Shown piece by piece: positions 3,733-52,975 of a stretch of 57,858 nt of DNA (its first letter is position 1; the number at the start of each line of letters is the position of its first letter). Below the pieces are notes generated by a model, which saw nothing but the letters and a program-made list of their open reading frames with translations, was not told where the DNA came from and did no database searches. A program made the translations under genes and the position numbers. This stretch comes from Candidatus Kaiserbacteria bacterium (GTDB lineage: Bacteria > Patescibacteriota > Minisyncoccia > Phycocordibacterales > UBA918), in NCBI GenBank assembly GCA_020428815.1, contig JAGQMC010000042.1:1-57858 (forward strand). The letters are read 5' to 3'.

Positions 3733-3994
3733 ATTCAACTTGGAGCCGAAAGAGGCAATACCACTCACCTGGTTGAATATCAGTGCTACATGGAATGCGG
3801 ACCCCATGATGACGCCCGCGTACACTGGTTAGGGGGTCCAGCTTGCTGGAGCGCCAAGGTTCCCCTGTGGTCTAGGGAGGCATGCGATGCGAGGCCAAAA
3901 AGACAAGAGTGGAAGGGGTGGCTTAGGAGCCACGTGGAGTTGCAGGATGTAACCCACAATCCCCGGCCTCATGTGTGCACGCATGGGGTTTTTT
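3733..3994 (+). ncRNA. unclassified GC-rich structured RNA; candidate riboswitch leader or stand-alone ncRNA
   Basis: 39/60 G+C in 3831-3890 versus 16/60 in 3661-3720. Helices: 3733-3739/3772-3778, 3779-3785/3823-3829, 3789-3793/3804-3808, 3831-3836/3861-3866, 3837-3841/3846-3850 (CUUG loop), 3918-3923/3928-3933 (UAGG loop). Bounded by a promoter and an intrinsic terminator. Confidence 0.6.
3967..3994 (+). terminator. intrinsic terminator closing the structured RNA
   Basis: 9-bp stem 3967-3975/3980-3988 (including 2 G-U pairs) with a TGCA loop, immediately followed by TTTTTT (3989-3994). Confidence 0.8.
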
Positions 3995-7400: not shown

Positions 7401-7955
7401 ATGAGCCTTCATGACTCACTGCAACACTTGCACGACTGGATTCAAAGGCAGTTTCAGAAATTTACAGATTGGTCGCAGATTACTCTGGGTTTAAGTAAGT
7501 TTTTTTGGGAAAAGGCTACTTGTTTGGTTTTTGCTGCTCTTGGCTGTACAGCTTTCATGTTTCTATCGGTCAAAGAAGGATTTATAATATCCTTGCTTTG
7601 CTACATGGAAGTCACTGCACACTTACTGTTAGGAGTAATCTATGTGCCTTTGTTAGATTTTTACGAAAAACAATTCTTTGAGAAAGGGTTGTTGAATAAA
7701 ACCAGAGACTTCTGGAGCAATGACATAACATTGGAGTTCGTCTTAATACCATTATTGGTATTTATTTTACTGATGCTGGCTTGTCTATTCGTTGATGTGG
7801 GTCAACTATTTTTCTCTGGTTGGCTATTTTGTTACTTTGTTATTCATTTTATTGCCAACTGTGTACCCAAACCACCTAGTCAAAGCAAGCTCAATAAGTT
7901 TGTTTCTAGCTTGCTTTGGAAAATTGTTGGAGACACGGCTCCGAAGCCGGCTTAG
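7401..7955 (+). CDS. hypothetical multi-pass membrane protein
   Basis: 184 aa with about 4 hydrophobic helices. AGGAGA lies 6 nt upstream of the ATG. Confidence 0.6.
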   Translation: MSLHDSLQHLHDWIQRQFQKFTDWSQITLGLSKFFWEKATCLVFAALGCTAFMFLSVKEGFIISLLCYMEVTAHLLLGVIYVPLLDFYEKQFFEKGLLNKTRDFWSNDITLEFVLIPLLVFILLMLACLFVDVGQLFFSGWLFCYFVIHFIANCVPKPPSQSKLNKFVSSLLWKIVGDTAPKPA

Positions 7956-8053: not shown

Positions 8054-8156
8054 CAAGCAGGGTCTGAGCAATTTGAAAGACCTCACGAAGCTCGTCATCT
8101 GGACGAGCGAGCGGAGAACTTGATTTATGTCTTTCAAATTACTCAGACCCTGCTTG
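8054..8156. repeat. 103-nt long hairpin: 28-bp inverted repeat (1 mismatch) enclosing a 7-bp apical hairpin
   Basis: 8054-8081 CAAGCAGGGTCTGAGCAATTTGAAAGAC pairs with 8129-8156 GTCTTTCAAATTACTCAGACCCTGCTTG. Inner hairpin GCTCGTC(8090-8096)/GACGAGC(8102-8108). Confidence 0.6.
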
Positions 8157-8430: not shown

Positions 8431-8534
8431 GTAACAAGTTCAAATACACACTTAATTGTCAACATATTTACATTTTATATAAGCAAACGCTTATATTGTT
8501 ATTTCATCATTCACAAAACAACCACCTTAAAACC

Positions 8535-36254: not shown

Positions 36255-36287
36255 AAAGAAAAAAACCGGAACAGCTTGTGCTCCGGT
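36255..36287 (-). terminator. intrinsic terminator after ppk2
   Basis: ACCGGA(36265-36270)/TCCGGT(36282-36287). On the minus strand it is followed by TTTTTTT. Confidence 0.8.
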
Positions 36288-36304
36288 CTATAAATGAGTG
36301 GCCG

Positions 36305-37255
36305 TTACTTCTTCGGCCGCCGACTCGGTGGAATAGTACCAGTGAGTATCTGATGTTGTACTCCAATAACATCACGACTAGAACCAACAATGAAACGGTC
36401 TGGATGTGTAACGACCTCAAAGTTTTTCTCAGGATATGGCAGAAGATTCAAAAAATGCATCATCATAGCCAATCTAGCTCGTTTCTTGTCGTTTGATTTA
36501 ATAACCGTCCAAGGGGCATCAGCTGTATCTGTATTAAAGAACATCAGTTCCTTGGCTTCAGTATATTCATCCCACTTATCCATCGAGGCCTTATCGACTG
36601 GTGACAACTTCCATTGTTTTAAAGGATCATTTGCTCTCGCTTCAAACCGTCTATGCTGTTCATCTTTTGTCACCGAAAACCAATACTTGAACAGGATTAT
36701 GCCATCATTAACCCACATTCGTTCCAGATCAGGACACTGTCTCATGAACTCCAGATATTGATTTGGGGTACAGAACCCCATCACCCTCTCCACTCCGGCT
36801 CGGTTGTACCAGGAACGGTCAAAAATGGTCATTTCGCCGACGTCCGGAAAGTGCTTGATGTAACGCTGGAAATACCACTGCCCCTGCTCTTCGACATTAG
36901 GTTTCTCAAGCGCCACTACTCTGGCACCACGAGGATTCAGCTTTTCGGTCAAACGTTTGATAACACCTCCCTTACCTGCCGCATCACGACCTTCACACAG
37001 AATAATAATGCGCTTTTTCTTATCTTTTACCCAAGCTTGGACCTTAAGAAGCTCTATTTGCAAAAGCCTTTTTTGCTCCTCATACTCTGCGGTAGATATT
37101 TTATCCAGATAAGGGTATTTGCCCGACTCAAAATAGTGCAAAAAATCCTCAGGATTATTCACGTCAATTTCATCGAGGTCAGATTGCGCTCTTCGACTAA
37201 GCTTACCCTCAACTTCGACGTCACCTGATGGTGTATGAACATCTCTTTTTGTCAT
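36305..37255 (-). CDS. ppk2: polyphosphate kinase 2 family (polyphosphate:nucleotide phosphotransferase)
   Basis: Walker A GRDAAGKGG and PPK2 core FDRSWYNR. Start set at the ATG at 37255, which is preceded by AAGGAG. Confidence 0.9.
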   Translation of the reverse strand: MTKRDVHTPSGDVEVEGKLSRRAQSDLDEIDVNNPEDFLHYFESGKYPYLDKISTAEYEEQKRLLQIELLKVQAWVKDKKKRIIILCEGRDAAGKGGVIKRLTEKLNPRGARVVALEKPNVEEQGQWYFQRYIKHFPDVGEMTIFDRSWYNRAGVERVMGFCTPNQYLEFMRQCPDLERMWVNDGIILFKYWFSVTKDEQHRRFEARANDPLKQWKLSPVDKASMDKWDEYTEAKELMFFNTDTADAPWTVIKSNDKKRARLAMMMHFLNLLPYPEKNFEVVTHPDRFIVGSSRDVIGVQHQILTGTIPPSRRPKK

Positions 37256-37347
37256 CGTCTTCTCCTTGTAATGAACAAACAAAGCCCCAACAGCGGCGCT
37301 TACAGCCGGCCTGGATTATTCCATTCAAAGATAATAAAGTCAACGCA

Positions 37348-37761
37348 CTAATGATTTTTTGGGTTAAACATGTTAGCTAAATCAGTCACGGTAGAAAAAA
37401 CTTCTATCTCAGGCAGATCTGTCTTGTTAATGAACCTTATCGCTTGGCACTCATTTGATGGTGTGAAATCAAGACTGACTAACTCAACCTCAAATAATAC
37501 ATTTACGCACCACCCTTCTGACCTGGTCATTTTAGCAGTGATGAAGTAACACGGATTATCTGCCATCCGTTTTACTTCAAGACCCATTTCTTCCTTTATT
37601 TCACGCTTCATTTCATCGGCTACTGACTGACCAAAGTCCAGACCTCCACCCGGCAACTCCCAGCGACCATTATCCTCCTGACAAACTAAAAATTTATCCT
37701 TAGTTTCGTTCAGCACTAGCGCTTTGACACTCACTCGATAAAAACAATCTGGAATGTTCAT
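37348..37761 (-). CDS. NUDIX hydrolase
   Basis: Nudix box GGGLDFGQSVADEMKREIKEEMGLEV (REUxEExGU satisfied). The ATG at 37761 overlaps the stop of the upstream gene as TAATG. Confidence 0.85.
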   Translation of the reverse strand: MNIPDCFYRVSVKALVLNETKDKFLVCQEDNGRWELPGGGLDFGQSVADEMKREIKEEMGLEVKRMADNPCYFITAKMTRSEGWCVNVLFEVELVSLDFTPSNECQAIRFINKTDLPEIEVFSTVTDLANMFNPKNH

Positions 37762-37940
37762 TATTTTTTCCAATCTTTAATTACCAACTCTTTACCCCGA
37801 AGTTCAATCGTTACCTTTTGCCCACGTTGCCATCTTAGTTTACGAATCAACTCAATCGGCAGTGTCATAGCCACACTCCGACCACTACCTGACTTTGATA
37901 ATTTGCGAGTAAACCTATCTTCTAATTTATTTCTTGCCAT
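37761..37940 (-). CDS. AbrB/MazE/SpoVT-type DNA-binding protein (antitoxin-like), 59 aa
   Basis: SVAMTLPIELIRKLRWQRGQKVTIELRGKELVIKD matches the swapped-hairpin AbrB pattern. Start trimmed to MARNK, because the track ORF extension runs through the upstream palindrome. Confidence 0.65.
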   Translation of the reverse strand: MARNKLEDRFTRKLSKSGSGRSVAMTLPIELIRKLRWQRGQKVTIELRGKELVIKDWKK

Positions 37941-37956
37941 ATCTAGTAGCATACCA

Positions 37957-38002
37957 TTGCGCAGAGCTTGCTCCGAGCATGCGCAGAGCAAGCTCTGCGC
38001 AA
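37957..38002. promoter_or_regulatory. perfect 16-bp inverted repeat (TTGCGCAGAGCTTGCT / AGCAAGCTCTGCGCAA), 14-nt spacer; candidate operator
   Basis: Arms at 37957-37972 and 37987-38002. GC-rich in an AT-rich divergent intergenic region, 17 nt upstream of the AbrB-like start. Confidence 0.65.
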
Positions 38003-38069
38003 ACCCACACTCCTGATGATAGATTGGGGTATGCTATAGTAAATTTCATAAAATAAATACGAACCATCT

Positions 38070-38444
38070 ATGACAATGTATCAAGGAAATTGGAAGTGTA
38101 GCGCCTGTGGCGGAACCATCACTGAACTACCTTTTCAACCTAGAAGCGAGTCTGGTCTAACTTGTCGTACTTGTTGGAGTCAGAAAAACCAACCAGTAAC
38201 CGCTAACTCTCCGACCGAAGTACCTCCTTACGATATTCCAGAAGAAGCTGGCTTGGCCAGCGAACCAATGGCTGACGATGGATTTGGAGCCGATGCTATA
38301 CCAGTAGCACCTGGCGAGAAGCCTAGGTTTAGTGGTGAATGGGAGTGTGCGGGCTGTGGTACTACCATCACTTCGCTTCCATTCCAACCCCGAGATACTA
38401 GTAATTTAAAATGTCTAGACTGTTTTAAAGCTAGTAAACAGTGA
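38070..38444 (+). CDS. tandem zinc-ribbon protein (two CxxC-x19-20-CxxC modules)
   Basis: WKCSACGGTITELPFQPRSESGLTCRTCW and WECAGCGTTITSLPFQPRDTSNLKCLDCF are separated by an acidic linker. Confidence 0.7.
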   Translation: MTMYQGNWKCSACGGTITELPFQPRSESGLTCRTCWSQKNQPVTANSPTEVPPYDIPEEAGLASEPMADDGFGADAIPVAPGEKPRFSGEWECAGCGTTITSLPFQPRDTSNLKCLDCFKASKQ

Positions 38445-38451
38445 GTCAAAA

Positions 38452-38484
38452 ATGGTCCGGAAGCTTTGCTTCCGGCCCATTTTT
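38452..38484. terminator. bidirectional intrinsic terminator between convergent genes
   Basis: CCGGAAGC(38457-38464)/GCTTCCGG(38468-38475), flanked by A-run and T-run. Confidence 0.85.
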
Positions 38485-38495
38485 ACAAAACCTAC

Positions 38496-39248
38496 CTAAT
38501 CGACAAAATCCAAATATTTGACCGCTACTCCCGATTCGGTCATTTCCCCCTTTACGTATACCTTAGCCGCCTCTGTAAATCGCTCATTTAAACACGGTAG
38601 TGACTCACCAGTTTCGTTGTAACAAGCAGATGATTCGTCGAAGAATAGTGGTACAGCATGACCAGGCTCCCCATCTTGTACAAATATCAGGTGCCAATTT
38701 TCACTATTTAACAATGATGATAAGCTGTCTTTAAGTAAATATCCCTCATAAGAAAAACTAAATTCTCTTTCCGGTAACACATCACCCATTGAGCACTCAA
38801 TTTTATCCAACACCCATTCACCCGCTTTGGCTACTACAGTAACAATCGCCATACCAGCTTCATCTGAGCCTCGAGGCAACACCATCACCTGTCCCTCGGT
38901 ATCATTACTAAAAATTGGTTTAGCCCCAATCCGTGGCGGCACCACTGACTGACACAACACCTTGTCCACAGCAAAATTTTCTTCAGTTTGTCCGGTCGCG
39001 AGCTCAGTTTTTAAATTATCACTTAACAGAGGTGAATTGTGTAAATTAGCAGCGTAAGGATCAGTAGTTGTTGATAGTATCGCCTTAAGCCATGAATTAT
39101 AAAAATCCAGCACAATGTCAATTGGTTCTTCTTCTGGAACAGTTTGTTCATTTACCACTTCAACCTTATCGCCAGATAAAGACCGTACAACCACCACCAG
39201 TATTATTAGCCCTAATGCTAATAACAGAATTTTAAACAAATTTTTCAT
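38496..39248 (-). CDS. hypothetical membrane-anchored secreted protein
   Basis: 250 aa with an N-terminal TM/signal helix. Confidence 0.65.
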   Translation of the reverse strand: MKNLFKILLLALGLIILVVVVRSLSGDKVEVVNEQTVPEEEPIDIVLDFYNSWLKAILSTTTDPYAANLHNSPLLSDNLKTELATGQTEENFAVDKVLCQSVVPPRIGAKPIFSNDTEGQVMVLPRGSDEAGMAIVTVVAKAGEWVLDKIECSMGDVLPEREFSFSYEGYLLKDSLSSLLNSENWHLIFVQDGEPGHAVPLFFDESSACYNETGESLPCLNERFTEAAKVYVKGEMTESGVAVKYLDFVD

Positions 39249-43199: not shown

Positions 43200-43655
43200 T
43201 TACAATGAAAGGCTATTTTCTTCGTAAAACTCTGAGTAAGACTTACCCTGCAACATCGACTCCAGTGCTTCCTTCATAAATGGCACAAATTCGTCCAGTC
43301 GTTCTCCAACTGGAATCCACATAACTTCGCTACATTTGTGCGGTTCAGTATTTACTGGCTCTTGGTCGCAGCATTCAATTTTAAAATAGTAATGAGTTCT
43401 ATCGTGCCGACCGTCTACATTTCGATTGTATTGAATATGCACAAACTCAATATCTTCTGCTGACACATCAACACCAACCTCTTCTCTCGCTTCTCTGACC
43501 GCAGCTTCACGTGGAGTCTCATCTGGGTCAATATGTCCTGCTGGCATATTTAAACAATCATCACAAAATCCGGTATTTTGTCGTCGCCCAACAAACCACT
43601 TGCTCTCACATTCAAGCAACAAACATACCGCGGGTATAATTACATGTTTTTCCAT
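43200..43655 (-). CDS. NUDIX hydrolase
   Basis: Canonical Nudix box GHIDPDETPREAAVREAREEVGV. Confidence 0.85.
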   Translation of the reverse strand: MEKHVIIPAVCLLLECESKWFVGRRQNTGFCDDCLNMPAGHIDPDETPREAAVREAREEVGVDVSAEDIEFVHIQYNRNVDGRHDRTHYYFKIECCDQEPVNTEPHKCSEVMWIPVGERLDEFVPFMKEALESMLQGKSYSEFYEENSLSL

Positions 43656-50803: not shown

Positions 50804-51646
50804 TTAGCCTAAAGTACTACTCGCTGTTTCAATTTCTGGAACAGCGGGTTCTTCATTTATATAAACCTTGCTACCAAATCTCAAATCAATGTATTGGAAA
50901 TTACCTGGGGCTAAGTGAGAAAATTCGGGTGAAGCTAAGATAGCTCGAAGATTATCAACAATTTCCTCTGGTGGATTTGCAATTGTCACCTTTAATTCAC
51001 CACCGCCAACTATTGTTAAAAAAGCGTCTCCCACGTTATCTAATTCTACGCGCGAGACGTACCAATCGTTAGCAGCTAGTAATTCCACCAATTCATTTAC
51101 CATTGAAAATATATCAAATGGTAAGACTAACTTACCGACTTCCATTTGCTCTCCTGAAGTCACGAATCTTAAGTATGTACCACCTGACAAAACTGGCGCC
51201 TTTGAGAAAGCCAGCCCTGTCTCATCAAGAAATAAACATTTTTCTGAGGATAAATCCCCGTCACACCACAGAGCATATGGCACATATTCATCAAAACTTA
51301 CAGATAAAGCGCGTTTTGTTTGAGACACTTCAACACTATGTACTCGATCAATCGCACTAACCGAATCAATAATCCTCGACTCTGGATACGTCCAAGTGAA
51401 ACGCTTGGGTATCAACCCAAGATAATCACCACTAAGCTCAGCTGCTACGATTTCTTCAATTACTCTATGCTTAATAGTTTCGCCTCCATAAACATTAATT
51501 TCATCGATGGTAACTGCCGGTAATCTTGTACCGTGCCAAACACCAGTTATAAATAATGCCAATAAACCAAAAACCAAAGCACCGATTCCTATTTGTTTTA
51601 ACAAGACTTTAGTTTCTGGTCTGATTTTTTGTCGACGACTACTCAT
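50804..51646 (-). CDS. ftsQ: cell division protein FtsQ/DivIB-like (POTRA)
   Basis: 280 aa with a basic N-terminus, a single TM helix, a POTRA-like region (I.V.G......I) and a beta-rich ectodomain. Confidence 0.6.
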   Translation of the reverse strand: MSSRRQKIRPETKVLLKQIGIGALVFGLLALFITGVWHGTRLPAVTIDEINVYGGETIKHRVIEEIVAAELSGDYLGLIPKRFTWTYPESRIIDSVSAIDRVHSVEVSQTKRALSVSFDEYVPYALWCDGDLSSEKCLFLDETGLAFSKAPVLSGGTYLRFVTSGEQMEVGKLVLPFDIFSMVNELVELLAANDWYVSRVELDNVGDAFLTIVGGGELKVTIANPPEEIVDNLRAILASPEFSHLAPGNFQYIDLRFGSKVYINEEPAVPEIETASSTLG

Positions 51647-51669: not shown

Positions 51670-51706
51670 TTGAAAAACCGGTTCGCTGAGCGAACCGGTT
51701 TTTCAA
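51670..51706 (-). terminator. intrinsic terminator after serS
   Basis: AAAAACCGGTTCGC(51673-51686)/GCGAACCGGTTTTT(51690-51703), 3-nt loop. Confidence 0.9.
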
Positions 51707-51709
51707 CAA

Positions 51710-52975
51710 TTATTTTTCAATTTTATCCTTTCCAAAGTATGACCGAAGTGGCTCAGGGATAACAATACTTTCATCCGCTTGTTGAAAATTCTCCATCAAT
51801 GACACCAGAATGCGCGGAGTCGGAATGGCAGTACAGTTTAGTGAGTGGGCATAACGAATCTTTCCATCTTCGTCACGATAGCGAATGTTAAATCGTCTAG
51901 TCTGGAAGTCATGGAAGTATGAAGCAGAACTAATCTCTCGATATTTTTGTTCTCCGGGCACCCATAGCTCAATATCATACTTTTTAACCTGACCTTGTCC
52001 CAAGTCACCTCCACAGTTCACCACTGTCCGGTAAGGAATACCTAGTGATTCAATAAATTCCTCAGTGTTACGGTTTAGCCATTCGTGCCACTTAACACTC
52101 TCTTCATGTGACGCTTCGCAAAGCATCACTTGTTCGAGCTTGTAGAATTCATGTACTCGAATCAAACCCCGAGTGTCTTTACCGTGGCTACCAGCCTCCC
52201 GTCGATAACAAGGAGAAAAACCTAGATACTTTATCGGAAACTCACTCTTATCTAAAATCTCATCACTACGATAACCCATTACTGACACTTCACTGGTACC
52301 AATCAAATAATCTTCATCTTGGGTACGATATACATCATCAGCTTCATTAGGCAAATGGCCCGTACCATACAAATTAGCCTTGCGTACAATTGAAGGTGGT
52401 AGTACCGGAGTAAAACCTTTTTGTTGAAAGAAGTCATTAGCATAGTTCCAAATTGCCCATGACAATCGTGCTCCATCACCGATCAAGTAATAACCACGAA
52501 AACCATGCACTTTTGATCCACGCTCAAAGTCCACCATTTGATGATCTTGCATCAAATCAACGTGATCTTTAGCTGTAAAAGAGAATTTTGTCTGATCTCC
52601 CCAAATCTTAAACTCTTCGTTATCTTCATCAGAGTCTCCGTCTGGAACTGACATATCTGGGACATTTGGAACCTGTAACATTAAAGACTGCCATTCTTCC
52701 ATCACTGGCTTTAACTTATCTTCATCCTGCTGAATTGCCGCCTTCACTATCTGCATTTCCCCAATTAATCGCTGTTTTTCTACAGGATCAGTGGTAATGG
52801 GAATTTGTTCCGAGACTTTGTTTTGTTTAGCTCGCTCTTCCTCGATTTGACTCACTAGTGATCGGCGAGAATCATCTACTACTATCAGTCTATCCAAATC
52901 AATACTCGACTTTTTCTTAGTCGCCGCCATTTTTACCACGTCTAAATTTTCCCTAATGAATTTAATATCAAGCAT
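51710..52975 (-). CDS. serS: serine--tRNA ligase
   Basis: 421 aa. N-terminal coiled-coil arm and class II motifs (FRGYYL, CYRREAGS, TAIPTPRIL). Confidence 0.95.
   Translation of the reverse strand: MLDIKFIRENLDVVKMAATKKKSSIDLDRLIVVDDSRRSLVSQIEEERAKQNKVSEQIPITTDPVEKQRLIGEMQIVKAAIQQDEDKLKPVMEEWQSLMLQVPNVPDMSVPDGDSDEDNEEFKIWGDQTKFSFTAKDHVDLMQDHQMVDFERGSKVHGFRGYYLIGDGARLSWAIWNYANDFFQQKGFTPVLPPSIVRKANLYGTGHLPNEADDVYRTQDEDYLIGTSEVSVMGYRSDEILDKSEFPIKYLGFSPCYRREAGSHGKDTRGLIRVHEFYKLEQVMLCEASHEESVKWHEWLNRNTEEFIESLGIPYRTVVNCGGDLGQGQVKKYDIELWVPGEQKYREISSASYFHDFQTRRFNIRYRDEDGKIRYAHSLNCTAIPTPRILVSLMENFQQADESIVIPEPLRSYFGKDKIEK

What the first reader, a model, noticed from the sequence alone, without database searches (positions are those of the whole stretch)
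37348..38002. AbrB/MazE-like small gene translationally coupled to a NUDIX hydrolase behind a perfect 16-bp palindrome: toxin-antitoxin-like architecture with an unusual partner
A 59-aa protein with a SpoVT/AbrB swapped-hairpin signature (SVAMTLPIELIRKLRWQRGQKVTIELRGKELVIKD) ends in TAA, which overlaps the ATG of a 137-aa NUDIX hydrolase (TAATG at 37759-37763).

Seventeen nt upstream of the small gene lies a perfect 16-bp inverted repeat (37957-37972/37987-38002). It is GC-rich against AT-rich surroundings, as expected for an autoregulatory operator.

A small AbrB/MazE antitoxin first, an overlapping larger enzyme second, and a palindromic operator upstream together form the canonical type II TA layout. 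However, I do not recognise a NUDIX hydrolase as a described toxin partner for MazE/AbrB antitoxins. In this Nudix box the Glu of the GX5E position is replaced by Gln (GGLDFGQ).

Alternatively the small protein is simply a transcription factor controlling a nucleotide-housekeeping operon.
Basis: partly seen in the sequence, partly recalled or inferred. Interest (0 to 1): 0.7.

Follow-up and report, generated by a model that had tools for sequence, protein, structure and literature searches.

The report
Self-regulating mini-AbrB gene beside ordinary NUDIX
The small gene and its palindrome are one copy of a widespread but undescribed unit in candidate-phyla-radiation bacteria, a 58-residue AbrB/MazE-type DNA-binding protein with its own probable operator, and the NUDIX hydrolase behind it is an ordinary enzyme that happens to sit downstream, not a toxin.

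Summary
The sequence features are real. A 59-aa SpoVT/AbrB-fold ORF (37940-37761, minus strand) overlaps a 137-aa NUDIX ORF (37761-37348) by TAATG. A 46-bp near-perfect GC-rich palindrome (37957-38002) lies 16 nt upstream.

- NUDIX orthologues occur widely in Patescibacteria, and none of the 80 genome loci examined has an AbrB-type gene within 4 kb.
- The small protein belongs to a large family of about 58-aa stand-alone proteins (at least 2,886 clusters).
- These proteins lack the C-terminal tail that MazE-type antitoxins use to neutralise toxins.
- Their downstream genes are unrelated to each other, ranging from enolase and a tRNA synthetase to TatD, Fic and NUDIX.

What is conserved is the palindrome plus the small gene. 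Long, mostly loop-less palindromes built of tandem sub-palindromes (usually 12-bp period) lie 0-30 nt before the start codon across the family. Their sequence changes along with the protein sequence.

Best explanation: an autorepressing mini-AbrB module whose transcript also carries a passenger NUDIX. Binding and repression are inferred, not shown.

The parts
37957..38002 (.). 46-bp near-perfect palindrome, the putative operator. It consists of two tandem 22-bp palindromes (37958-37979, with 2 mismatches, and 37980-38001, perfect 10+10 arms around AA), each TGCGCAGAGC-WW-GCTCTGCGCA.
   Evidence: for the sequence and its rarity. The family-wide equivalent element is shown. It is 100% identical in six other metagenome contigs of the same organism.
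37948..37956 (-). Candidate extended -10 element, TGGTATGCT, directly abutting the palindrome. Seven nt separate it from ATG 37940, which would give a leaderless mRNA.
   Evidence: Read from the sequence. The same geometry (TGnTAnnnT, 6-9 nt before the ATG, no Shine-Dalgarno) appears in other family loci. Inference, not mapped.
38016..38043 (-). Alternative sigma-70-like promoter, TTTACT-16-TATCAT (9 of 12 matches), upstream of the palindrome. If this one is used, the palindrome is transcribed as positions about +7 to +52.
   Evidence: consensus scan only.
37761..37940 (-). 59-aa stand-alone SpoVT/AbrB (MazE-like) swapped-hairpin protein with no C-terminal tail.
   Evidence: Pfam. AlphaFold2 pLDDT 85.6 with a beta-beta-alpha-beta-beta order over residues 14-56. 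Foldseek top hits are MazE 1ub4_C (TM 0.74, rmsd 1.1 A), SpoVT, AbrB-N and VapB1. Family size: 383 representatives and 2,886 clusters.
37759..37763 (-). TAATG stop/start overlap. No Shine-Dalgarno sequence precedes the NUDIX ATG, so termination-reinitiation coupling is likely.
   Evidence: The coupling itself is inferred.
37348..37761 (-). 137-aa NUDIX hydrolase with an intact REIKEEMG catalytic motif. It is an orthologue of a widespread Patescibacteria NUDIX family.

Best explanation
The palindrome and the 59-aa gene form a self-contained autoregulatory module.

- The protein is a minimal AbrB/MazE-type swapped-hairpin DNA binder. It presumably dimerises.
- It probably binds the two tandem 22-bp palindromes that abut its own -10 element, and so represses its own transcription.
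- The NUDIX gene is an ordinary housekeeping-type hydrolase. In this lineage it lies directly behind the module, is co-transcribed, and is translated by stop-start coupling (TAATG). Its expression is therefore tied to the module's promoter and operator.
- The NUDIX enzyme is not a toxin and the small protein is not its antitoxin.

Shown: fold, family membership, non-conservation of the pairing, family-wide conservation of the palindrome architecture and its position, and change of palindrome sequence along with protein sequence.

Inferred: dimerisation, DNA binding, repression, promoter position, co-transcription and translational coupling.
For: (1) Fold. Pfam PF04014 scores above its gathering threshold. 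The AlphaFold2 model has pLDDT 85.6. It matches MazE, SpoVT, AbrB-N and VapB1 with TM up to 0.74.

(2) The palindrome is a family feature.
- In 75 non-redundant family loci the best inverted repeat in the 150 nt upstream scores a mean of 13.2.
- The comparison values are 8.4 downstream, 6.1 shuffled, and 7.9 for upstream regions of 111 other genes in the same loci.
- 45% of family loci score 14 or more, against 4.5% of those controls.
- 43 of 58 palindromes end 30 nt or less before the ATG.

(3) The features fit a DNA site rather than an RNA hairpin.
- 41 of 58 palindromes have no loop.
- 32 of 35 long ones are tandem sub-palindromes with a 12-nt period, for example TTACGTAA x3, ATACGTAT x3 and CTCnnGAG x3. 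The window's period is 11.
- Mismatches show no G.U bias (AC 3, GT 2).

(4) Related proteins share operator types, and groups with different beta1-beta2 loop sequences have entirely different operators of the same architecture.

(5) Between loci with related proteins, DNA homology is confined to about 230-280 bp. This covers the palindrome plus the gene and ends at the stop codon, while the flanks differ.

(6) A -10-like element directly abuts the palindrome, and no Shine-Dalgarno sequence is present.

(7) Precedent: three MazE dimers bind a 47-bp operator upstream of mazE (PMC4333400).

(8) The NUDIX gene is a passenger.
- It has 589 homologous clusters at 53-64% identity and 286 genome loci.
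- 0 of the 80 loci examined has a family member within 4 kb, tested with the family HMM at E<=10.
- Upstream neighbours all differ.
Against: - No binding, transcription or expression data exist. Every functional step is inferred from sequence.
- The six other contigs of this organism are 100% identical in the region, so there is no within-species covariation.
- The window's operator is atypical for the family: GC-rich, 11-nt rather than 12-nt period, and two mismatches in one half.
- The promoter is ambiguous. If the upstream promoter is used, the palindrome is transcribed and would fold at -41.8 kcal/mol, so an RNA-level effect could coexist.
- The link between operator type and protein sequence is confounded by shared ancestry.
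- A 59-aa protein has no sensor domain, so what relieves repression is unknown.
- In about one third of family loci the next gene is convergent. Control of a downstream gene is therefore not the family's general role.
Confidence: 0.62

Rival explanations
1. Type II toxin-antitoxin pair. The NUDIX enzyme is a growth-arresting toxin (for example by depleting NAD, nucleotides or capped RNA). The AbrB-like protein neutralises it by direct binding and autoregulates the operon through the palindrome.
For: - The layout is canonical for such pairs: small DNA-binding gene first, overlapping enzyme second, palindrome upstream.
- Automated annotations call family members 'antitoxin component of MazEF'.
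- The closest structural match is MazE.
- A weak PADLOC hit links the NUDIX to the candidate defence family PDC-S07 (E=4e-10). This is no stronger than the generic NUDIX match.
Against: - The pairing is not conserved. 0 of 80 NUDIX-orthologue loci have an AbrB-family gene.
- The AbrB family has 22 unrelated tight downstream partners out of 23, including enolase, a class II tRNA synthetase and a Mur ligase. Its closest relative is solitary.
- There is no toxin-binding tail. The fold spans residues 14-56 of 59, whereas MazE neutralises MazF with residues 50-82.
- A toxin would not persist unpartnered in hundreds of genomes.
- No paper in the searchable library links Nudix with AbrB/MazE antitoxins.
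Confidence: 0.04
2. The palindrome acts at the RNA level only. It would be a very stable 5'-UTR hairpin controlling mRNA stability or translation of the small gene, and would not be a protein-binding DNA operator.
For: - Predicted hairpin of -41.8 kcal/mol, z = -5.6.
- A promoter-like site lies upstream of it (38043-38016).
- In several family loci a TATAAT lies immediately upstream of the palindrome, so it would be transcribed there.
Against: - 41 of 58 family palindromes are symmetric through the centre with no loop.
- 32 of 35 long ones are tandem repeats of short sub-palindromes at a 12-nt period, which an RNA stem does not require.
- There is no G.U over A.C bias in mismatches.
- In the window and several relatives the best -10 lies downstream of the palindrome, so it may not be transcribed at all.
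- No Rfam family matches.
- It is not a terminator. There is no T-run, and the flanking genes diverge from it.
Confidence: 0.1
3. The adjacency has no regulatory meaning. The small protein would be a general nucleoid-associated or global regulator with targets elsewhere, and the NUDIX gene would be expressed independently of it.
For: - The family's genomic contexts are essentially random.
- One third of downstream genes are convergent.
- The protein is very basic and tiny, like the archaeal AbrB-type chromatin protein Sso7c4, which is a distant structural hit (rank 47).
Against: - In the window the stop and start codons overlap, with no Shine-Dalgarno sequence, promoter or terminator between the two genes. 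Independent expression of the NUDIX gene is therefore unlikely.
- The operator sub-site occurs nowhere else in 57.8 kb, which argues for a dedicated rather than global binder. Only about 58 kb of the genome is visible.
Confidence: 0.15

Closest known systems
E. coli MazE acting as transcription factor of mazEF (PDB 1ub4, 2mrn, 2mru; PMC4333400)
   Same: - Swapped-hairpin beta-beta-alpha-beta-beta fold (TM 0.74, rmsd 1.1 A).
- Its own promoter region carries a roughly 47-bp operator with several tandem dimer sites next to the start codon. The window has 46 bp with two 22-bp sites.
   Different: - No intrinsically disordered C-terminal tail (MazE residues 50-82), so no evident means of neutralising a toxin.
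- No MazF-like or any other conserved partner.
- Operators are long perfect palindromes rather than one short palindrome plus degenerate sites.
- There is a 12-residue basic N-terminal extension.
AbrB / Abh / SpoVT transition-state regulators of Bacillus (PDB 1yfb, 2fy9, 2w1t)
   Same: They are stand-alone transcription factors using the same DNA-binding fold. AbrB is negatively autoregulated (own knowledge).
   Different: - Those proteins carry additional C-terminal oligomerisation or GAF domains (94-178 aa) and bind many promoters with weak consensus (own knowledge).
- This protein is the bare domain, with a highly specific, strictly symmetric site found only at its own gene.
AbrB-type VapB antitoxins bound to operator DNA (Caulobacter VapBC1 5l6l, Rickettsia VapBC2 3zvk)
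   Same: Same fold, and they bind palindromic operators upstream of their own operon.
   Different: Those have C-terminal toxin-wrapping segments and an obligate PIN-domain partner. Neither is present here.
Sso7c4 and virus/plasmid C56/C68 mini AbrB-like proteins of Sulfolobus (PDB 2l66, 7xi6, 3o27)
   Same: Single-domain SpoVT/AbrB-superfamily DNA binders of about 56-68 aa without partner genes.
   Different: They are only weak structural matches (TM 0.35-0.45), are archaeal or viral, and have no known tandem-palindrome operator architecture.
Minimal NUDIX hydrolases related to the catalytic domain of PDB 3o8s / 3q1p ('ADP-ribose pyrophosphatase', MutT/nudix family)
   Same: Best sequence matches among solved structures (E=1.2e-11 and 1.3e-6). 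The same Gln, or another non-Glu residue, occupies the GX5E position.
   Different: Those proteins have an extra roughly 65-residue N-terminal domain. The substrate of the Patescibacteria family is unknown.

Membership tests
Type II toxin-antitoxin system (MazEF/VapBC-like) | The two genes co-occur as a conserved pair across genomes. | tested here: not met
   0 of 80 NUDIX-orthologue loci have an AbrB-family ORF within 4 kb. AbrB-family genes have 22 unrelated tight downstream partners out of 23.
Type II toxin-antitoxin system (MazEF/VapBC-like) | The antitoxin has a toxin-neutralising segment in addition to the DNA-binding domain. | tested here: not met
   The fold occupies residues 14-56 of 59. 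The family is uniformly 57-62 aa. MazE uses residues 50-82.
Type II toxin-antitoxin system (MazEF/VapBC-like) | The second gene product arrests growth and is rescued by the first. | not testable with these tools
   This needs expression experiments. Indirectly unlikely, because orthologues are unpartnered in hundreds of genomes.
Type II toxin-antitoxin system (MazEF/VapBC-like) | A palindromic operator at the promoter is bound by the antitoxin. | tested here: inconclusive
   The palindrome is present and conserved in architecture across the family. Binding was not tested.
SpoVT/AbrB (swapped-hairpin) DNA-binding superfamily | Sequence match to PF04014 above the curated threshold. | tested here: met
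   29.1 bits against a 24.7 cut-off, E=9.5e-7.
SpoVT/AbrB (swapped-hairpin) DNA-binding superfamily | A beta-beta-alpha-beta-beta half-barrel fold superposable on MazE/AbrB/SpoVT. | tested here: met
   AlphaFold2 pLDDT 85.6. Foldseek: MazE TM 0.74 with rmsd 1.1 A, SpoVT 0.68, AbrB-N 0.62.
SpoVT/AbrB (swapped-hairpin) DNA-binding superfamily | Homodimerisation into an interdigitated barrel, and DNA binding. | not testable with these tools
   Only a monomer could be modelled. The symmetric tandem sites are consistent with dimers.
NUDIX hydrolase superfamily | The Nudix box GX5EX7REUXEEXGU. | tested here: met
   The sequence is GGLDFGQSVADEMKREIKEEMGL, and all positions are met except the first Glu, which is Gln. 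That position is variable in the orthologue family, while E54 and E58 are invariant and R53 and E57 are conserved in at least 90% of members. PF00293 E=7e-11.
NUDIX hydrolase superfamily | Pyrophosphohydrolase activity on a nucleoside-diphosphate-X substrate. | not testable with these tools
   No equivalog model reaches its cut-off. The substrate is unknown.

The most novel reading that the evidence does not exclude
The palindrome plus 58-aa gene unit is a portable, self-repressing promoter-operator-repressor cassette, about 250 bp long, that relocates within and between Patescibacteria genomes.

- On landing it would capture whatever gene lies downstream.
- A subset of its cargo could be conditionally harmful enzymes kept in check transcriptionally: Fic, RadC, DUF3800, TatD, Dam, EVE, MazG-like and NUDIX.
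- That would make it a tail-less, transcription-only analogue of a hyper-promiscuous antitoxin.

The evidence does not exclude this.
- Homology between loci stops exactly at the module borders.
- Contexts are unrelated.
- Nucleotide pyrophosphatases follow the module three times among 24 tight pairs. Excluding the window, that is 2 of 23, with P about 0.15 at an assumed 3% background (my estimate).
Probability: 0.1. Interest if true: 0.65.

Novelty: new member of a known kind. Interest (0 to 1): 0.33.

Why it matters
For this locus the result is a correction. An apparently canonical toxin-antitoxin layout is not one, and automated 'MazE antitoxin' labels on thousands of Patescibacteria proteins are probably misleading.

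More broadly, the work brings out a large, unstudied family of minimal AbrB-type proteins. Each appears to carry its own long tandem-palindrome site directly at its promoter, and sites and proteins diversify together.

Such pairs are a natural data set for working out how the swapped-hairpin fold reads DNA sequence, which is poorly understood for AbrB itself. They also give rare, directly testable regulatory predictions for uncultivated candidate-phyla-radiation bacteria.

The NUDIX enzyme family is widespread in Paceibacteria and has no assigned substrate.

Tried and rejected
1. A word-indexed protein search with the small protein alone found only one relative and wrongly suggested an orphan. 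The exhaustive HMMER search and a profile search revealed the large family.
2. The first structure prediction, with a 2-sequence alignment, was poor (pLDDT 57.5). It was repeated with 68 sequences.
3. The search for related loci with the 68-sequence alignment failed for lack of a conserved stretch. It was redone with 12 closer sequences.
4. I looked for any small same-strand ORF upstream of the NUDIX orthologues that could be a divergent AbrB. None was found. Most were spurious, and there was one RHH-type ORF in L084.
5. Terminator reading of the palindrome: rejected. There is no T-run and the genes diverge from it.
6. Repeated or mobile palindromic element (REP/MITE-like): rejected. The motif occurs once in the window.
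7. Known RNA family: none.
8. Phage or plasmid origin of the small protein: no relatives in viral contigs or PLSDB plasmids.
9. NUDIX enrichment near family genes: only L102 and L137 by a strict Nudix-box regex, plus L001. These NUDIX proteins resemble the window's only over the Nudix box. This is compatible with chance.
10. Literature: no paper links Nudix with AbrB/MazE antitoxins, or AbrB with Patescibacteria/CPR.
11. A loop-length versus operator-class table used a sloppy regular expression. I cite only the qualitative grouping.
Full report
**1. What is in the sequence**

On the minus strand a 59-codon ORF runs from ATG 37940 to TAA 37763-37761. Its stop overlaps the ATG (37761-37759) of a 137-codon ORF that ends at TAG 37350-37348.

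The 129-nt region between the small ORF and a divergent plus-strand gene contains a palindrome at 37957-38002. That divergent gene (38070-38444) encodes a double treble-clef zinc-finger protein. The palindrome has perfect 17-nt arms, extending to 23+23 nt with two mismatches and no spacer. Read closely, it is two tandem 22-bp palindromes, TGCGCAGAGC-WW-GCTCTGCGCA.

Its GC content is 0.61. The rest of the intergenic region is 0.35. It is one of the three strongest inverted repeats in the window, and its sub-site occurs nowhere else in 57.8 kb. Six other metagenome contigs of the same organism carry the whole arrangement with an identical intergenic region.

- Tight or overlapping gene junctions are common in this window. 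11 of 48 same-strand pairs have gaps of 5 nt or less.
- The Glu-to-Gln change in the Nudix box falls at a position that varies freely across the orthologues. It is also Gln in the nearest solved structure, 3o8s.

**2. What the two proteins are**

The small protein matches Pfam MazE_antitoxin (PF04014) above the curated threshold. With a 68-sequence alignment AlphaFold2 gives a confident model: pLDDT 85.6, strand-strand-helix-strand-strand over residues 14-56. Its best PDB matches are MazE (TM 0.74, rmsd 1.1 A), SpoVT, the AbrB N-domain and AbrB-type VapB antitoxins. The fold claim holds.

The chain stops three residues after the last strand. MazE neutralises MazF with a disordered tail spanning residues 50-82 (PMC4333400). 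Here there is no tail, only a 12-residue basic N-terminal extension.

The second protein is a minimal NUDIX domain with an intact REIKEEMG motif. No NCBIfam equivalog model reaches its cut-off, so its substrate is unknown.

**3. Is the pair conserved? The NUDIX side**

The NUDIX protein has 589 homologous clusters at 53-64% identity, named where named as Paceibacteria, Kaiserbacteria, Nomurabacteria or Parcubacteria. A scan of species-representative genomes found 286 loci encoding relatives, and I examined the best 80.

None has a relative of the small protein within 4 kb, either by phmmer or by a family HMM at E<=10. The upstream neighbours differ in every locus. PPK2, the methyltransferase and the zinc-finger neighbour are also not syntenic.

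A protein that persists without a partner in hundreds of genomes is not behaving as a toxin.

**4. Is the pair conserved? The AbrB side**

The word-indexed search found only one relative. An exhaustive HMMER search found 383 representative clusters, 111 of them at E<=1e-10. A profile search found 2,886 clusters at 90% identity.

Almost all are 57-62 aa and align end to end. The consensus is MARRKLEDRNIRKLTKtGrGSxxVTLPIExVReLgWRexQKVvVkxxGKKLIIEDWKK. Where named, they come from Patescibacteria. This consensus also fixes the start of the window's gene at 37940, not at 37952 as gene callers chose.

I collected 86 loci. They contain 83 family genes, sorted as follows:

| Subset | Count |
|---|---|
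| Family genes with a downstream ORF | 70 |
| Downstream ORF on the same strand | 48 |
| Same strand, gap 60 nt or less | 23 |

The 23 close downstream ORFs fall into 22 unrelated sequence clusters. Pfam identifies among them a short-chain dehydrogenase, DUF924, a NUDIX of another subfamily, a Mur ligase, TatD, a histidine kinase, an SDH-type protease, a MazG-like protein, RadC, a Dam methylase, DUF3800, an EVE domain, RhuM-Fic, a PfkB kinase, a class II aminoacyl-tRNA synthetase and enolase.

The closest relative of the window's protein (63% identity) is solitary.

**5. What is conserved instead: palindrome plus small gene**

In 75 non-redundant family loci I scored the best inverted repeat within 150 nt upstream of the start codon.

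| Region | Mean best inverted-repeat score | Share scoring 14 or more |
|---|---|---|
| Upstream of family genes (n=75) | 13.2 | 45% |
| Downstream of family genes | 8.4 | not computed |
| Shuffled sequence | 6.1 | not computed |
| Upstream of 111 other genes in the same loci | 7.9 | 4.5% |

Among the 58 palindromes scoring 10 or more:
- The median span is 35 bp.
- 43 end 30 nt or less before the ATG.
- 41 have no central loop.
- Of the 35 that are at least 30 nt long, 32 have a 12-nt internal period. They are two or three tandem copies of a short palindrome, for example TTACGTAA x3 in L139, ATACGTAT x3 in L089, and CTCnnGAG x3 in L103, L104 and L144.
- The window's element has an 11-nt period.
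- The few mismatches show no G.U preference (AC 3, GT 2).

Symmetry through the centre, helical-repeat spacing of sub-sites and the lack of wobble bias all point to a site read on double-stranded DNA by several symmetric dimers. They do not point to an RNA hairpin.

Groups of related proteins share an operator type. Groups that differ in the loop between the first two strands have quite different operators of the same architecture. This is suggestive of co-evolving recognition, but it is confounded by common descent.

Between loci with related proteins, nucleotide homology covers only about 230-280 bp. It runs from just upstream of the palindrome to the stop codon, and the flanks are unrelated. 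L089 and L116, for example, have near-identical modules, followed by a dehydrogenase in one and a protease in the other.

**6. Promoter geometry**

Family start codons are not preceded by a Shine-Dalgarno sequence. G frequency is 0.03-0.16 at positions -12 to -5.

In the window and several relatives an extended -10 element abuts the downstream end of the palindrome, 6-9 nt before the ATG. In the window it is TGGTATGCT at 37956-37948. This predicts a leaderless mRNA, with the palindrome at -17 to -62.

In other relatives a TATAAT lies directly upstream of the palindrome. The window also has a weaker upstream candidate, TTTACT-16-TATCAT at 38043-38016. If that one is used, the palindrome is transcribed and would fold at -41.8 kcal/mol.

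Either way the palindrome touches a -10 element, which is where a repressor site would be expected. Which promoter is used cannot be settled from sequence.

**7. Most likely mechanism and rivals**

I commit to an autorepressing mini-AbrB module with a passenger NUDIX (confidence 0.62).
- Dimers of the 59-aa protein occupy the two 22-bp palindromes and limit transcription of a bicistronic mRNA.
- The NUDIX gene has no Shine-Dalgarno sequence, promoter or terminator separating it from the small gene. It is translated by reinitiation at TAATG.
- The fold, the family, the lack of a conserved pair and the family-wide cis element are shown. Binding, repression, co-transcription and coupling are inferred.

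Rivals:
- True toxin-antitoxin pair: 0.04.
- RNA-only hairpin: 0.10.
- Fortuitous neighbours with independent expression: 0.15.

The palindrome is not a terminator, because it has no T-run and the genes diverge from it. It is not a dispersed repeat, and it matches no Rfam family.

**8. Comparison with known systems**

Functionally it most resembles MazE acting as a transcription factor. MazE has the same fold and a 47-bp operator with three tandem dimer sites at its own promoter. This protein is not a member of the MazEF or VapBC toxin-antitoxin class, because two defining features were tested and not met: a conserved partner and a neutralising tail.

It is a member of the SpoVT/AbrB superfamily by both sequence and fold. 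It differs from AbrB, Abh and SpoVT in being the bare domain with a strictly symmetric, apparently private operator. The archaeal and viral mini AbrB-like proteins (Sso7c4, C56, C68) are similar in size but only weakly similar in structure.

No paper in the searchable library connects Nudix with AbrB/MazE antitoxins, or AbrB with Patescibacteria/CPR. The family has no relatives in the viral-contig scan or in PLSDB plasmids.

**9. Novelty and score**

The locus as flagged is a new member of a known kind: an AbrB/MazE-type autoregulator next to an ordinary NUDIX gene. The unusual-toxin idea is not supported.

The side result does not appear in the searched literature and is experimentally tractable. 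It is a very large family of minimal AbrB proteins, each with a long tandem-palindrome site at its own promoter and with modular conservation that stops at the stop codon. That lifts interest somewhat above a plain negative (0.33).

The most novel reading not excluded is that the roughly 250-bp unit is a portable self-repressing cassette that captures downstream genes, some of them potentially harmful (probability about 0.1).

**10. Limits**

- Only about 58 kb of this genome is visible, so other binding sites and the copy number per genome are unknown.
- ORF calls in the comparison loci are mechanical (longest ORF, greedy selection).
- The palindrome score is ungapped and underestimates imperfect sites.
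- The pattern-based locus scans sample the family rather than exhaust it.

Noticed in passing
L084:3688-3975 (Levyibacteriota MAG, upstream of the NUDIX orthologue starting near 3992): A 95-aa ribbon-helix-helix, antitoxin-like ORF (...QVYLPQQLSQTLDLVAKREKK...DLSANIDKYLY...) lies about 17 nt upstream of a NUDIX orthologue, with no PIN or other toxin gene. This is a second, independent case of an antitoxin-type DNA binder directly before this NUDIX family (1 of 80 loci).
   Followed up: partly
L102:98-1915: This is the only other tight AbrB-family to NUDIX junction found. The AbrB-like gene is at about 1200-1385. A 183-aa NUDIX of a different subfamily follows (ORF from 1364), and a second NUDIX-box ORF lies upstream (98-694). 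A MazG-like pyrophosphohydrolase follows the family gene in L117 (3181-3528). This may be a weak tendency towards nucleotide pyrophosphatases, but it is not significant (2 of 23 excluding the window).
   Followed up: partly
L112:50-232 and 499-684: Two different AbrB-family genes lie in tandem, 266 nt apart on one contig. This suggests paralogues can coexist in one genome.
   Followed up: no
window 43200-43655 (-): A second, unrelated NUDIX gene (151 aa, PF00293 E=2e-18) lies 5.4 kb away. NUDIX genes are therefore frequent in this genome, which raises the chance of fortuitous adjacency.
   Followed up: partly
window 38070-38444 (+): The divergently transcribed 124-aa protein has two CxxC...CxxC treble-clef zinc-finger modules (PF23477, zf_Tbcl_2) separated by an acidic, proline-rich linker. 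A candidate extended -10 for it (TGCTATAGT, about 38031-38039) overlaps the minus-strand -35 candidate, so the two genes may share a control region with the palindrome.
   Followed up: no
window 36263-37343 (-): The PPK2 polyphosphate kinase gene (36305-37255) has its own strong promoter-like site (TTGACT-17-AATAAT with TG, 37343-37315) and a terminator-like hairpin (36289-36263). It looks like a separate transcription unit from the AbrB-NUDIX pair.
   Followed up: partly
window 38457-38475: A perfect 8-bp GC-rich hairpin with T-runs on both strands lies between the convergent genes at 38070-38444 (+) and 38496-39248 (-). It looks like a bidirectional intrinsic terminator.
   Followed up: no
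window 8054-8156: This is the strongest inverted repeat in the window: 28-nt arms, 96% complementary, 47 nt apart. It lies in the intergenic region between ORFs ending at 7955 and starting at 8496. Unexplained.
   Followed up: no
window 51670-51706: A perfect 18-nt inverted repeat with a 1-nt spacer (TTGAAAAACCGGTTCGCT / AGCGAACCGGTTTTTCAA) lies between two minus-strand genes (50804-51646 and 51710-52975). It could be a terminator or an operator.
   Followed up: no
L001:2255-2291: Downstream of the closest AbrB-family relative, TTTCTAACACT and its complement AGTGTTAGAAA occur as a triple inverted/direct repeat within 37 nt. Its function is unknown.
   Followed up: no
window 37938-37952 (-): Gene callers in public assemblies annotate the small protein as 63 aa starting at ATG 37952 (MLLDMARNK...). 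The family alignment shows that the conserved start is ATG 37940 (MARNK...). The longer call would place the start codon inside the candidate -10 element.
   Followed up: yes
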